Assembly (NCBI GenBank): GCA_963575745.1
Contig: CAUYUJ010000144.1
Span: 62,001 to 117,653, forward strand
Direction of reading: 5' to 3'
Origin: Prorocentrum cordatum
Taxonomy: Eukaryota
Length of the DNA: 55,653 bases
The notes under the pieces are model-generated. The model had not been told where the DNA came from and did not search any database. It saw only the letters and a list, made by a program, of their open reading frames with translations. Positions within the stretch are counted from its first letter, which is position 1, and every line of letters starts with the position of its first letter. The position numbers and the translations under genes are program-made. This document shows positions 17,530 to 55,653 of this stretch, one piece after another.

Positions 17530-17680
17530 GAGGAGGAGGAGGAGGAGGAGGAGGAGGGAGGAGGAGGAGGAGGAGGAGGAGGAGGAGGAGGAGGAGGAGG
17601 AGGAGGAGGAGGAGGAGGAGGAGGAGGAGGGAGGAGGAGGAGGAGGAGGAGGAGGAGGAGGAGGAGGAGGAGGAGGAGGA
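17530..17680 (+). repeat. (GGA)n microsatellite at the 3' end of LINE-A
   Basis: Direct reading. Confidence 0.97.
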
Positions 17681-17722
17681 GTTCAGGAGTTCAGGAGTTC
17701 CAGGACGAAGTCCATGCATCCC

Positions 17723-20700
17723 TCATGGGGACCCCTTATGGGCCCCAGCCTTACGCATGAGCTCGGCTTTACTAAAGACCTTAGGGAATAGCCCCCGCTT
17801 TAGACGATTCAAATACTCGGCACGGGTGGGGGTGACCTGATTCGTGCACCCCTTCCCCAGGCCCAAAAGCTGCTTATCCCCATACATACCACAGCACGCG
17901 CAAAACCAAATATTCAGGGTCTGATGCAACCGCATGGTGTGGGAGGGGTCGACCCACCCCCCAGCAATGTGTACTCTCGCACCCCCCGGAAGCCCACAAA
18001 ACACGTCATCCAACATCACAGGATGGAAACAACTGGACTGCCTCCAGGCTCGCGTCAGAGAAATCGAAGCGGATCCACGGCAACGACAATACCGACGACC
18101 AGTCTCGTCGAGCTGGTGGCTGGATCCGAAAAACGAGATCACACTGTCAGCCGGCGGCGGCGGCACCATGACGGGGGGGGGGCCAAAACCAGGAGGGATG
18201 GCGGCTCCTTCAACCTGGCTCTCGCCATTAGGTCCACGGCGACCACTCCTACCCCCACGTCTATGCCTGCCCATCCTACGACTAAGACTGTTCGGACTCA
18301 CGGACCTGATCTTCAGCCTCCATTGCGTCAAAAGACGCTCAAGATACGCATGCGAATCCAAAACATCTGGTGTTCGAGGGCAAGGATGGGGCTGCGCACA
18401 CTATCTGGGAGTCGCACTTGCGCTGCAGCCCAGCCCGCCAGGACATCGGCCGCCTGATTCCCTCGCACCAGCCAAGAACGGGCCTTCCCACGAACAACGT
18501 CTTCGGCACTCTGATGGCTGTGCGTGAACAGAACGGTAACATGCGACCTCTCTCTGCCTGCCATCTCCTGTCCGATTTCGGCCCGCAAATCACTATTGAC
18601 TCCAGCAGGCTTCTGATCAAGGTGAGCATACCAACCATCATACACCGCTTGATTCAGCGACGTACACTACGTAATCTGAGGCCCACTGCACAGCACGTAG
18701 AAACATGAACAGCTCGCCTCTTGGCACCGACTGTTGGTGCCCAGGCAAACTGCCTGACGCGGTACTGACCAGCTGCATCTCGTACTCATCATTGAACTGT
18801 GCCAGCCCAACTCCAATCCGTCTAAACTTGGGGTTACCAGAGTTTTCACATCCGCTCGCGTCGCCAAAGAACAGAATCGGTGGGTGCGGTCAGCAGGTAG
18901 CAACCCACGGAGCCAGATGGCCTCATGGGCCTCGTGCTGCGCGTACGCCTGAGCCAGCAGGAAGTCCGACTTCTCGCAGGCCAATGCACCACAATTCGCC
19001 TTACACGACCAGATACGATGAAAGGCCGATTCTGGACAGCATGTGCATCGAGATCAAAGTGGATCCACCGACGTCTTTGTTACCATGGCTGCCCGTCGCT
19101 CGCGAGGCCATGATCCGCCCGCTGCAACTGTCATGAGCATCTCAGCGAGCCGACGTCCTTGCGGAGCTTGCTCGAGGTGGTGCAGGAGTAGCTGCAGGAG
19201 CGCCATATCCGCCCCCTGGACCAACCCTGCCCCGCCAGAATGAGCCTCCACATTCTGCCGCAACAACTGTTCAGAAGTGGTACCAAAATCCGCTAAGAAG
19301 AACGGCAGACCATTCAACGCCATGACCTCAGAATACCGCTCCTCAGAAAACTGCCATTCAGTGCCGTCTGGCATGACCCACAATGTCGGTGTCCTGGGCC
19401 CCCAACCCCGCACCAGCAGGTAAACGATAACTGCCGACATGGGTCCTCTGACATGGCGTGACCACCGTCACCGCGGCATACCTCGCAAGCGCTCCACCGC
19501 AGAACTCCAGATTCGATGCACACCTCTGCGAACGGAAGGACAGCTCAACCACTGTTTGAGCCAAAATTCCAACCACTCATGAGGATACTTGGTACCAGGG
19601 TCTCGCCCTGGCTCGCGAATAGCCAACAGTGAAATTATACACGAGCCTCGTCCACCGTTGCTGATCACCGCCGCCGGACTCCTTCGAGTCTGCTCGTGCT
19701 CGACCCCGAGGAGACCATGAATATGATGCCCATGCGTACCAGCTGCTGCCGCACTGTTCCTCTGCAAAAGGCTAGTGACACGGTAAGCGCGAGTGGCACA
19801 AACATATCTCAATATTTTCTGGTGCAGCTTCTGATGTTTGAGCACCCTCTTCGCGCGTGTCATCCGCGCATGGCGCCCTCCTCCCTGATCGATGCCCAGG
19901 AAGGGAGCCCGCAAAGCTGCGCGTACACGAAAGCCCCTCAACTTGAGTCGCCTCGAGATCTCCTTCGCATCGCTCTGCGACGAGCACGCGACGACTGACT
20001 TGGGGGAAGCGTCCAGTTGCCAGCGGGCTAGCTCATCACACGCATCTGCTAAGCAAGCCGTGACGCGCGTTCGCAAAATCCCGCTAGGCCCAACCATTCT
20101 TCGTGATGCATCGTCAACCCAGATCCTGCGGCTGAGCCCCACATGTACCTGAGAAATCTGGGAAATAATGAAACGTGTCATGCAGCGAGCGAAACGGGCG
20201 CCGCTGCGTAGCCCTTGAATGATCGATCGCCCCACCAAAAAATGGCCCACGAACCGTGCCAAACTGCTCCAAAGTCCGCGGCGCTGTGCACTGCGCTACC
20301 TCTAAATGCAGAACAGCAGGCGGGTAGCCCAGGCGGAGCGCCGCCTGAATCAACAAGTTCCACTGGGTCCAGTCGTAGAAGCCCTCGGTATCCAGCATGC
20401 CGTGGGCGGACGAGATCTGCATGGCAGCTGCCACCTCGTCCCCGAGGGCGCGGTGAAAGGCCTCCTGGAGGGAGGCGTTCCCTAGGACCGCTGCGTCCCA
20501 GCCTTCCTCCGTCACGCTGGCCCACTCACGCGCGTGCTCCTCGCGGAGCGCTGACCACAGGCGGCCCATCACCGACGCCAGCCCGATGACCCTGTCGCCA
20601 TCGGCCTTCTTGGGGAGGGGCTTCCCCAAGATCAGCTGTGTCTGGTGTGGCCACGTGAGAGTGGCTTCAATGTAGTTGACAAGATCAGCGAGCTCCGCCA

Positions 20701-54271: not shown

Positions 54272-54400
54272 TGCGGCAAGCTGCGAGGGAGGCCGACGGC
54301 TCGGGCACGAGCGCGCCAGCGGGGAAAGTGTCCGCCTGGATTTGACTCCAGGAAAGCCTCGGAAGAGAGGCAGCCTCACTCGAATGGGGCCTGTCCCCAC

Positions 54401-54422
54401 CTTGAGCCAAAATGGCAACGGA
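54401..54422 (-). other. Dinoflagellate spliced leader (dinoSL) copy at the 5' end of LINE-B
   Basis: Minus strand TCCGTTGCCATTTTGGCTCAAG vs dinoSL DCCGTAGCCATTTTGGCTCAAG, 21/22 identical. Confidence 0.92.
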
Positions 54423-55653
54423 GGAGCAGGAGGAGGAGGAGGAGGAGGAGGAGGAGGAGGAGGAGGAGGAGGAGGAGGAGGAGGAGGGGGAGAGCCAGCA
54501 AGCGAAGAGCAAGTGGAGGCGAGAGGCCCTGCCCATGGGAGGACCTCCGCGTTGCTCTGCTTGCGGGCCCTCTTCTGGGCGGGCGTCTCCTTCTTCTCCT
54601 TGCCTGCCAGCTGCCGCGCCATCCTCGAAAGCAACCGGCTCGAAGCTGCAGCGGTGGGAGGGCTCTCGGGCCAAAATCTCGCCCGCGCCTCTCCACGCGG
54701 GAGGCTGGCGAGCGCGACGCTGGCTGGAAGATGCGGGGGGCGAGGGAGACGGGTCGAAATACCACCTCCATTCTTCCACGCCGTCCTGCGTCCATTCCTC
54801 CACTTCACCTCCTGCGCCTCTTTCCCCCTCACTGCCAAACGCGCGGCCCAGAGAGCGACCTCCAGTTTTAAGAGCGCGAATGCCTGTTTCCAATCCTCTT
54901 GCCAAGACGGCGAGGCAGCGGACAGCGGATCCTGTCCACCAACCACGCCTTCTCCACCTCCTCCTCCTCCTCCTCCTCCTCCTCATCCTCATCCTCCTGC
55001 TTCACCCTTGCAGTGCCCATGTAACCTCCTCGTGGAGAGAGGTTGAAGTATAAAATTGAAAGATTCACTGAGTGTTGAACTAATGGGATAAAAGGGTGGA
55101 GGACATATGGTGTGCCTCCCTTGGTGGGGGTAGGCTTATGGTGCCCACCGTCAGTTGTGGAGGAGCCTATGGTGCCCCTCCGAGCCCACCCCGTCCCATC
55201 CACAGGGACTTCGCACCTCCCCCCAAGGTCCCCCACCATGCCCCTGTGGCACGAAGTGGAGTGTCCCCAGGTCCATTGCTCAACCCCTGAGCTTCAGCCC
55301 TCAACTCTGAGAATTCTGTAAAAAAATCTGGACCCCTAATTCCAAGACGGCCCAAGGGGCCCCCAAGACCGCCCCCAAGAGGCCCCAGGGAGACGCAAAG
55401 GAGGCCCCAAGAGGCCCCCACGACGCCCCGATACTACCCAAACTGGCCCCCAAGAGGCTTCACAACGGCGCCCAAGAGACCCCCGAAAGGCCTCCAACGA
55501 CATCCCTACGAACAACTTGGAGGCTTGTGACCTTACAACACAGGCGCAGTGGCGGGATGGGACGAAGGCTATTGGATAATTGGAAAGCGACCTGATGAGG
55601 TGGCTGGACCACTCGTCTGTGCTAATCCTTATCCTCCTCCTCCTCCTCCTCCT

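What the first reader, a model, noticed from the sequence alone, without database searches (positions are those of the whole stretch)
17530..54487. Two different LINE families both bounded by (GGA/CCT)n with the same polarity
Seen: LINE-A (WVDD, RNase H) has GGA arrays at 17530-17680 and 23791-24301. LINE-B (FADD, no RNase H) has them at ~49450-49585 and 54423-54487. Both read into (CCT)n on their sense strand, and neither has a poly(A) tail. Known: microsatellite-specific APE LINEs exist (Tx1-clade Kibi and Koshi, R1-clade Waldo). Inference: these elements target (CCT)n and/or carry CCT tails that prime target-primed reverse transcription and seed the abundant GGA arrays. The SL's 5' TCC also gives microhomology with the target.
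Basis: partly seen in the sequence, partly recalled or inferred. Interest (0 to 1): 0.75.

Follow-up and report, generated by a model that had tools for sequence, protein, structure and literature searches.

The report
Two dead LINEs inside CCT microsatellites
Two unrelated, decayed jumping genes in a dinoflagellate-type genome each sit inside a (TCC)n simple repeat in the same orientation, and one starts with the spliced-leader tag of dinoflagellate messenger RNAs; this suggests these repeats are landing sites, but two copies cannot prove it.

Summary
Both elements lie on the minus strand, and each is bracketed by (TCC)n on its sense strand. LINE-A spans about 17682-23791 and LINE-B 49586-54422. 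Neither has a poly(A) tail.

Both are true non-LTR retrotransposons with an apurinic-type endonuclease (APE). They belong to different families. LINE-A has APE, reverse transcriptase (WVDD) and RNase H. LINE-B has APE and reverse transcriptase (FADD) with no RNase H. Relatives occur in Polarella, Symbiodinium and marine metagenomes. Both copies are dead, with several frame breaks each.

Two things are new here:
- LINE-B begins with a 22-nt dinoflagellate spliced leader (one mismatch) that abuts the upstream array exactly.
- Both LINE-B junctions share a (TCC)5-TGC-TCC stretch, a candidate 21-24 nt target-site duplication.

LINE-A's reading frame ends 41 nt before its array.

Measured from landmarks that do not depend on the arrays, the association beats chance within the window (Fisher p about 0.002, post hoc, n=2).

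My best reading is insertion into pre-existing (TCC)n arrays. The ideas of an element-borne CCT tail and of "seeding" the genome's arrays are not supported: 22 of about 26 arrays have no LINE beside them. The genome-wide test could not be run because no genome or read data were available.

The parts
17525..17681 (-). LINE-A 3' flanking array. On the sense strand it reads (TCC)17-C-(TCC)24-C-(TCC)8.
   Evidence: TRF gives 51 units at 96% matches. Sequence read.
17677..17705 (-). LINE-A 3' terminal 8-mer repeat, (GAACTCCT) x3.5. It merges into the (TCC)n array.
   Evidence: TRF period 8; sequence.
17723..18400 (-). LINE-A ORF2 C-terminal Cys/His-rich domain. The stop codon lies 41 nt before the array.
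   Evidence: blastp matches the C-termini of 5 relatives, for example P0009 residues 1568-1696 of 1699.
18328..18889 (-). LINE-A RNase H domain, split over two frames.
   Evidence: blastp matches 15 and 2 relatives. One match is P0044 1210-1269, which lies inside that protein's Pfam RNase_H stretch 1214-1367. The family profile hits RNase HI in the PDB at E 4e-10.
19054..21112 (-). LINE-A reverse transcriptase and following linker, carrying WVDD, split over three frames.
   Evidence: phmmer finds 1223 relatives at E<=1e-3. RVT_1 is found in relatives. The family profile hits LINE-1 ORF2p at E 1e-9.
22430..23230 (-). LINE-A APE endonuclease, with motifs GDWN and PWRP(R/H).
   Evidence: blastp matches the N-termini of 30 relatives. 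One is P0053 residues 30-222, whose Pfam Exo_endo_phos stretch is 46-241 at E 3.6e-8.
23283..23790 (-). LINE-A ORF1-like segment with coiled-coil character and one in-frame TAG. Whether it belongs to the element is not shown.
   Evidence: ORF listing and sequence. No homologues found.
23792..24302 (-). LINE-A 5' flanking (TCC)n array, degenerate.
   Evidence: TRF gives 168 units at 81% matches.
49387..49585 (-). LINE-B 3' flanking (TCC)n array. It is clean next to the element and degenerate further away. Its first 21-24 nt are the candidate target-site duplication.
   Evidence: TRF; sequence; variant count.
49586..49767 (-). LINE-B 3' UTR, about 182 nt, with a perfect 11-bp hairpin at 49728-49752.
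   Evidence: The fold of the whole UTR is not significant (z = -1.4).
49768..51697 (-). LINE-B reverse transcriptase (FADD) and C-terminal domain, split over three frames. There is no RNase H.
   Evidence: Pfam RVT_1 at E 5.6e-9. The pieces are collinear with P0152 residues 531-1092.
51675..53347 (-). LINE-B APE endonuclease and linker, split over two frames.
   Evidence: BLASTP matches P0152 residues 89-470 at E 1e-21. P0152 carries Exo_endo_phos at 7-243, E 3.4e-8.
53348..54271 (-). LINE-B ORF1, 307 aa, with an intact frame from the first ATG after the spliced leader.
   Evidence: The Atlas returned only unnamed clusters.
54401..54422 (-). Relic dinoflagellate spliced leader, TCCGTTGCCATTTTGGCTCAAG, forming the 5' end of LINE-B.
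   Evidence: 20 of 21 searched bases match, against 0 matches in 100 shuffles. The canonical sequence was confirmed in PMC7245778.
54420..54492 (-). LINE-B 5' flanking (TCC)n array. Its last 21-24 nt are the candidate target-site duplication.
   Evidence: TRF gives 24 units at 94% matches; sequence.

Best explanation
Two unrelated, now dead, APE-type non-LTR retrotransposons each integrated by target-primed reverse transcription (TPRT) into an existing (TCC)n/(GGA)n microsatellite. In both cases TCC lies on the element's sense strand. The arrays on either side are the two halves of the split target, possibly lengthened by later slippage.

Shown here:
- the family identity of both elements;
- exact abutment of LINE-B's spliced-leader 5' end on the array;
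- LINE-A's true ORF2 C-terminus lying 41 nt from the array;
- absence of poly(A).

Inferred:
- The endonuclease nicks the (GGA)n strand, and the exposed ...GGA-3'OH pairs with a pyrimidine-rich RNA 3' end. For LINE-A that end would be (GAACUCCU)n. Alternatively it could be (UCC)n carried by read-through from the source copy.
- cDNA synthesis follows, then a second nick about 21-24 nt away.
- The 5' junction forms by microhomology with the TCC that starts the spliced leader.
- LINE-B's RNA was SL trans-spliced before it was copied.
For: 1. Both are LINEs of different families.
 - LINE-A's 881-aa frame has 1223 relatives at E<=1e-3.
 - Of 15 long relatives, 8 carry RNase_H, 6 RVT_1 and 2 Exo_endo_phos.
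 - Seven of the eight LINE-A frame pieces match relatives collinearly; the ORF1-like piece does not. No LINE-B piece matches them.
 - LINE-B is collinear with P0152, which carries Exo_endo_phos and RVT_1.

2. A spliced leader with one mismatch abuts (TCC)n in phase.

3. LINE-A's last frame aligns to the last residues of relatives, so its 3' end must lie within 41 nt of the array.

4. Arrays lie on both sides of each element, and no direct repeat lies outside them. This fits a split target.

5. Both LINE-B junctions share (TCC)5-TGC-TCC.

6. Placement test: Fisher p = 0.0016.

7. There is precedent for microsatellite-specific APE LINEs (PMC3812793 passages).
Against: - Only two copies were available, both old, with at least 6 (LINE-A) and 4 (LINE-B) frame breaks.
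- Arrays are frequent in the window: the median outward distance to any CCT-class array is about 2 kb.
- The TGC variant is common, making up 4 of 22 variant units in the window (2 of 20 outside the two junctions). The candidate duplication is therefore only suggestive.
- LINE-A's 5' end is undefined, and its ORF1-like segment has no homologues.
- Same polarity in two elements is a 1-in-2 event.
- Microsatellites change fast, so the present arrays need not be those present at insertion.
- One LINE-B relative ends in (TA)n, not CCT.
Confidence: 0.5

Rival explanations
1. Chance or passive retention. The LINEs insert more or less anywhere. In a genome with a CCT array every 2 kb or so, insertions in or beside harmless simple repeats are the ones that survive, and arrays then drift up to the element ends. 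No targeting is involved.
For: About 26 arrays lie in 55.6 kb. The individual placement p-values are modest, 0.019 to 0.13. Both copies are old. PMC3812793 attributes the association of Drosophila Waldo-A/B with CA repeats to passive accumulation.
Against: The spliced-leader 5' end abuts the array exactly and in phase. LINE-A's ORF2 stop lies 41 nt from its array. All four ends have arrays of one polarity, with a combined p of 0.0016.
Confidence: 0.22
2. Element-borne tail. Each LINE RNA ends in (UCC)n, in the way CR1/L2-type or I-type elements carry microsatellite tails. The 3' arrays would then be copied tails that later expanded, and such tails would seed the genome's GGA arrays.
For: LINE-A ends in (GAACTCCT)x3.5 running into a very pure array at 96% matches. 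The proximal part of LINE-B's 3' array is clean and the distal part degenerate. LINE-B's 3' UTR has a perfect hairpin. A relative ends in a microsatellite, (TA)n.
Against: A tail does not explain the upstream arrays. No target-site duplication is seen just beyond the 3' arrays. 22 of about 26 arrays have no LINE or 3'-UTR fragment beside them.
Confidence: 0.15
3. The leader at LINE-B's 5' end does not come from a trans-spliced LINE mRNA. Instead it comes from an SL RNA gene or pseudogene beside which the LINE landed, or from a template switch of the reverse transcriptase onto SL RNA, as in U6-L1 chimeras (recalled).
For: The leader is followed by GT. Passages of PMC6616646 state that sequences downstream of SL in SL genes start with GU or GC, and that Fugacium SL genes are 103-292 bp long.
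Against: The first ATG after the leader, 130 nt downstream, opens the intact 307-aa ORF1. None of the U-rich motifs listed in that paper is evident in the 130 nt. Rfam finds no RNA gene. GT after the leader is expected about 6% of the time by base composition.
Confidence: 0.15

Closest known systems
Microsatellite-specific APE-type LINEs: Kibi (TC)n and Koshi (TTC)n of the Tx1 group, Waldo (ACAY)n and Mino (AC)n of the R1 group, and Dong (TAA)n
   Same: These are APE-encoding non-LTR elements found inside a simple repeat in a fixed orientation, so the repeat lies on both sides (PMC3812793 passages).
   Different: The motif here is (TCC)n, which is not on that list. The host is a dinoflagellate-type genome. 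Two unrelated families share the same motif. Only one copy of each was seen, so specificity is not shown. Clade membership was not tested.
DinoSL-tagged retrocopies (retrogenes) of dinoflagellates
   Same: A genomic copy of the 22-nt leader marks the 5' end of a reverse-transcribed mRNA (PMC12014239 and PMC7245778 passages).
   Different: Here the tagged RNA is the LINE's own bicistronic message, not a host gene. A 2019 preprint (10.1101/783902, passages) treats DinoSL-relict genes and RT-genes as non-overlapping sets.
LINEs with 3' tandem-repeat tails and a 3' stem-loop (CR1/L2-type, eel UnaL2); recalled, not checked in a paper here
   Same: LINE-A ends in a short 8-mer tandem repeat. LINE-B has a perfect hairpin in its 3' UTR. 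Neither has poly(A).
   Different: No evidence that the repeat or hairpin is conserved among copies. The trinucleotide arrays also lie upstream of both elements.
RNase H-bearing APE LINEs (I, Tad1, Ingi and similar); recalled
   Same: LINE-A and its relatives have the order APE, RT, Cys/His motif, RNase H, C-terminal Cys-rich domain.
   Different: The clade was not determined. Sequence identity to anything solved is limited to domain level.

Membership tests
APE-type non-LTR retrotransposon (LINE) | Reverse transcriptase of the non-LTR type | tested here: met
   LINE-B hits RVT_1 at E 5.6e-9, and its relative P0152 hits R2 and LINE-1 ORF2p at E 6e-17 to 1e-13. LINE-A has no direct Pfam hit. 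It does have 1223 relatives, of which 6 of 15 long ones carry RVT_1, and the family profile hits LINE-1 ORF2p at E 1e-9.
APE-type non-LTR retrotransposon (LINE) | N-terminal apurinic-type endonuclease domain | tested here: met
   Shown through relatives. The LINE-A piece 22590-23282 aligns to P0053 residues 30-222 at E 2e-20, and P0053 carries Exo_endo_phos at 46-241. The LINE-B piece aligns to P0152 residues 89-470, and P0152 carries Exo_endo_phos at 7-243. Neither window frame hits Pfam directly.
APE-type non-LTR retrotransposon (LINE) | Target-site duplication flanking the insertion | tested here: inconclusive
   LINE-B has a candidate (TCC)5-TGC-TCC at both junctions, but the TGC variant makes up 4 of 22 variant units. 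LINE-A has only pure repeat at both sides. No duplication lies outside the arrays.
Microsatellite-specific LINE (Kibi/Koshi/Waldo/Mino/Dong kind) | Many independent copies at the same repeat in the same orientation | not testable with these tools
   No genome is held. There are no further copies in the window. The public contig collections returned no copy of either element, only four short LINE-B relatives, one with a readable 3' end.
Microsatellite-specific LINE (Kibi/Koshi/Waldo/Mino/Dong kind) | Phylogenetic placement in the Tx1 or R1 clade | not tested
DinoSL-tagged retrocopy | Genomic DinoSL at the 5' end of the copied sequence | tested here: met
   Met for LINE-B: 20 of 21 searched bases, against 0 matches in 100 shuffles. 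LINE-A has none at its 5' side. Its only SL-like 12-mer lies inside coding sequence.
LINE with microsatellite or tandem-repeat 3' tail | Element-encoded repeat at the RNA 3' end, conserved among copies | tested here: inconclusive
   LINE-A has (GAACTCCT)x3.5 and LINE-B has none. Conservation among copies could not be tested.

The most novel reading that the evidence does not exclude
The polarity is functional. A (TCC)n array on the sense strand just upstream of the element would act as a ready-made polypyrimidine tract. The AG that ends the relic spliced leader (CTCAAG|G in LINE-B), or an AG at the junction (CCTCTTCAG| in LINE-A), would act as the trans-splice acceptor. A promoterless LINE that lands in a (TCC)n array in the sense direction of a long dinoflagellate transcription unit could then be cut out of read-through RNA and capped with a new SL, restoring exactly the same 5' end in each generation. 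Selection for this would drive unrelated LINE families to the same repeat in the same orientation. It would make SL trans-splicing, not an internal promoter, the way dinoflagellate LINEs are expressed. A polypyrimidine requirement for SL trans-splicing is recalled from trypanosomatids. My search found no dinoflagellate data on it (listing only).
Probability: 0.12. Interest if true: 0.8.

Novelty: new variant of a known kind. Interest (0 to 1): 0.5.

Why it matters
Dinoflagellate genomes are huge and full of simple repeats and retrocopies. How their retroelements choose sites and get transcribed without known promoters is barely studied.

If (TCC)n arrays are landing pads for several LINE families, three things would follow:
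- a trinucleotide target new to the list of microsatellite-specific LINEs;
- a link between the genome's repeat load and retroelement activity;
- a simple genome-wide test.

An SL-capped full-length LINE would also show directly that LINE messages go through the same trans-splicing as host mRNAs. That bears on where the reverse transcriptase behind the many DinoSL-tagged retrogenes comes from.

Tried and rejected
Routes that gave nothing:
- Whole genome: none held.
- Earlier scan notes: nothing.
- Metagenome scan with the LINE-B RT piece: 184 pattern matches, none confirmed.
- Second metagenome scan with P0152 plus LINE-B: 106 matches, 4 confirmed loci, only one with a readable 3' end.
- Viral contigs with the LINE-A family: 22 matches, none confirmed.
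- Prokaryote genomes: 149 matches and one 66-aa hit in a bacterial MAG. I do not count it as a LINE relative.
- Word-index protein searches for the LINE-A RT region and the LINE-A ORF1-like segment: none.
- PDB sequence searches with the window frames of LINE-A: none. The LINE-B APE frame gave only weak dUTPase noise at E >= 0.28.
- Pfam on 103 other frames of the window: nothing credible.
- Rfam: 0 matches.
- Atlas: unnamed clusters only for LINE-B ORF1, nothing for the LINE-A ORF1-like segment.

Ideas considered and dropped:
- The internal SL-like 12-mer in LINE-A (19556-19567) lies in the reading frame over a tryptophan-rich stretch. As a 15-mer it has 3 mismatches, which 25 of 100 shuffles equal. 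I treat it as chance.
- A possible degenerate leader about 250 nt upstream of LINE-B's 5' array did not come up among matches with up to 3 mismatches, so I dropped it.
- Whole 3'-UTR folds are not better than shuffles, with z of -1.4 and 0.1.

Literature searches turned up no paper describing dinoflagellate LINEs in CCT arrays or SL-capped LINEs. Only the listings, and passages of the papers cited here, were read.
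Full report
**What the window is.** The window is 55,653 bases at 55.8% G+C and is dominated by simple repeats. Perfect runs of the ACT/TAG class cover 8.2% of it, the AGG/CCT class 2.9% and the AC class 1.1%. Apart from the two elements, 103 longer frames gave no credible Pfam family, and Rfam gave nothing. A 21-nt search for the dinoflagellate spliced leader found one site with one mismatch, against zero in 100 shuffles. The closest named relatives of the element proteins come from Polarella glacialis and Symbiodinium sp.. 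The DNA is therefore of dinoflagellate type. No whole genome is held for the window.

**The observation.** Tandem Repeats Finder places GGA-class arrays on the + strand at 17525-17681 (96% matches), 23792-24302 (81%), 49387-49585 (75%) and 54420-54492 (94%). Both elements are coded on the minus strand, so all four arrays read (TCC)n on the sense strand. Neither 3' end has an A-run.

**LINE-A is a real LINE.**
- Its frames hit nothing in Pfam or the PDB directly, and a word-index search found nothing.
- An exhaustive phmmer of the 881-aa frame against 1.84 billion representatives found 1223 proteins at E<=1e-3 and 341 at E<=1e-10. The best non-self hit has E 1.4e-41 at 32% identity.
- Of 15 long relatives aligned, 8 carry RNase_H, 6 RVT_1, 2 Exo_endo_phos and 1 zf-RVT. 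In an earlier set of 15 hits, 8 had at least one of these domains and 7 had none.
- A profile of the family hits E. coli RNase HI (E 4e-10), human LINE-1 ORF2p (E 1e-9) and R2 protein (E 7e-4).
- Seven of the eight LINE-A frame pieces align to the relatives in the expected order: endonuclease (30 relatives), RT (150 and 45), linker (34), RNase H (15 and 2) and the C-terminal Cys-rich domain (5). The eighth piece, the ORF1-like segment, matches none.
- The last piece reaches residues 1568-1696 of the 1699-residue P0009. The stop at 17720-17722 is therefore the true end of ORF2, only 41 nt before the array.
- Those 41 nt end in (GAACTCCT)x3.5, which runs straight into (TCC)n.
- The 5' side is less clear. 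A coiled-coil-like segment (23283-23790, with one in-frame TAG) sits where an ORF1 would be, but it has no detectable homologue. I cannot show that the element starts at the array.
- ORF2 is broken into at least seven frames. This copy is dead.

**LINE-B is a different LINE.**
- One frame hits RVT_1 (E 5.6e-9).
- A 1154-aa metagenomic protein, P0152, carries Exo_endo_phos at 7-243 (E 3.4e-8) and RVT_1 at 547-766 (E 8e-22).
- P0152 is collinear with the LINE-B frames: endonuclease and linker (E 1e-21), RT (E 1e-31) and the C-terminal part. A further frame (49768-50031) continues the Cys motif to a stop near 49768.
- There is no room for RNase H, and none occurs in P0152.
- No LINE-B piece matches any of the 150 LINE-A relatives at E<=1e-3. 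A direct comparison of the two elements' pieces gives nothing below E 0.1.
- ORF1 (307 aa) is intact. ORF2 has four breaks.

**The ends of LINE-B.** On the sense strand the sequence reads ...(TCC)n TGC TCC | TCCGTTGCCATTTTGGCTCAAG | GTGGGG..., followed by 130 nt without an ATG and then the ORF1 start. The canonical leader is DCCGTAGCCATTTTGGCTCAAG (PMC7245778, passage).

This marks the 5' end of a full-length copy independently of the arrays, and it abuts the array in phase. At the 3' end the element stops at ...GTGCAC and is followed by (TCC)5 TGC TCC TCC TCC TCT TAC....

Both junctions thus share (TCC)5-TGC-TCC, 21-24 nt long, as a target-site duplication inside a repeat would. The variant is not rare, however. 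TGC accounts for 4 of 22 single-unit variants flanked by perfect units in the window, or 2 of 20 without the two junctions. I rate this as suggestive only. No direct repeats lie outside the arrays of either element.

**Is it more than chance?** I counted about 26 CCT-class loci, 9 with GGA on + and 17 with TCC on +. I measured outward from the SL start, the two ORF2 stops and the LINE-A ORF2 start to the nearest array of the right polarity. The distances were 6, 183, 42 and 570 nt. Random positions do as well with p = 0.019, 0.058, 0.027 and 0.13, and Fisher's combination gives 0.0016.

The test is post hoc, and the two ends of one insertion are not independent if the target was an array. Same polarity in two elements is by itself a coin toss. 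The association is real within the window, but it rests on two copies.

**What it most likely is.** Arrays on both sides, the exact leader-array junction, the candidate duplication inside the arrays and the absence of any duplication outside them all fit integration into pre-existing (TCC)n/(GGA)n arrays.

The strand nicked first would be (GGA)n. Its 3' end can pair with a pyrimidine-rich RNA end. This could be LINE-A's own (GAACUCCU) repeat, or (UCC)n carried by read-through from a source copy that itself sits in such an array. The leader's TCC gives microhomology at the 5' junction. These steps are inference.

**What is not supported.**
- A (CCT)n tail carried by the element cannot be separated from target sequence.
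- 'Seeding' of the genome's arrays is not supported. Nucleotide self-comparison, tblastn with all frame pieces, and a short-word search with both 3' and 5' terminal segments found no further copy or fragment. So 22 of about 26 arrays have no LINE beside them.
- Among four metagenomic relatives of LINE-B, only two reach the end of ORF2. L004 stops 28 nt after its stop codon. L002 runs, about 80 nt after its stop, into (TA)n. That is a microsatellite, but not CCT.

**Rivals.**
- Passive survival of insertions in harmless repeats, as proposed for Drosophila Waldo-A/B near CA repeats (PMC3812793), remains a serious alternative.
- The leader could also stem from an SL RNA gene or a template switch. 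It is followed by GT, and SL-gene introns begin with GU or GC (PMC6616646). Against this, the first ATG after the leader opens the intact ORF1.

**Comparison with what is known.** Microsatellite-specific APE LINEs are established for (TC)n, (TTC)n, (ACAY)n, (AC)n and (TAA)n. (TCC)n is not on that list. I have neither the copy numbers nor the phylogeny needed to file either element with them.

DinoSL relics at the 5' ends of retrocopies are well known. I found no report of a LINE carrying one, and one preprint treats DinoSL-relict genes and RT-genes as separate sets. My searches covered only the held library, and I read listings and passages, not whole papers.

**Verdict.** If specificity holds genome-wide, this is a new variant of a known kind. 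The decisive census of all copies could not be run here.

Noticed in passing
window 1421-11310: A stretch of about 10 kb derived from (TAG)n (68% matches) with higher-order internal duplications at 77-86% identity. It is the largest repeat in the window.
   Followed up: no
window 34507-35534: A compound microsatellite, (CTC)40-(TCA)242-(CAC)n-(CCT)54. The last block is a perfect 163-nt (CCT) run.
   Followed up: no
window 11600-55653: CCT-class arrays change polarity in blocks. GGA is on + at 17.5-26.4 kb and 44.5-54.5 kb, and TCC is on + at 26.5-43.3 kb. Facing pairs occur at 26173-26385 / 26566-26622 and at 54420-54492 / 54948-54998. Both LINEs lie in GGA-on-plus blocks, so array polarity may follow a larger strand domain.
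   Followed up: partly
window 49728-49752: A perfect 11-bp hairpin in the LINE-B 3' UTR. The UTR as a whole does not fold better than shuffles.
   Followed up: partly
window 19556-19567 (minus): A 12-nt exact match to the core of the spliced leader inside the LINE-A reading frame. I judged it chance.
   Followed up: yes
L002 1605-1734: A metagenomic relative of LINE-B ends its ORF, has about 80 nt of UTR, and then runs into a (TA)n array about 19 nt before the contig end.
   Followed up: partly
window 22055-22576 (minus): A 174-aa protein held in a public eukaryote proteome set (source 'eukprot') is 100% identical to residues 62-235 of the LINE-A 881-aa frame. A fragment of this dead LINE has therefore been called as a protein.
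   Followed up: no
window 48343-48528: A 53-nt tandem repeat, 3.5 copies at 85% matches, about 900 nt downstream of LINE-B's 3' array.
   Followed up: no
window 24447-24595: Long homopolymer and G/C-rich runs, including C21 on +, just beyond LINE-A's 5' array.
   Followed up: no
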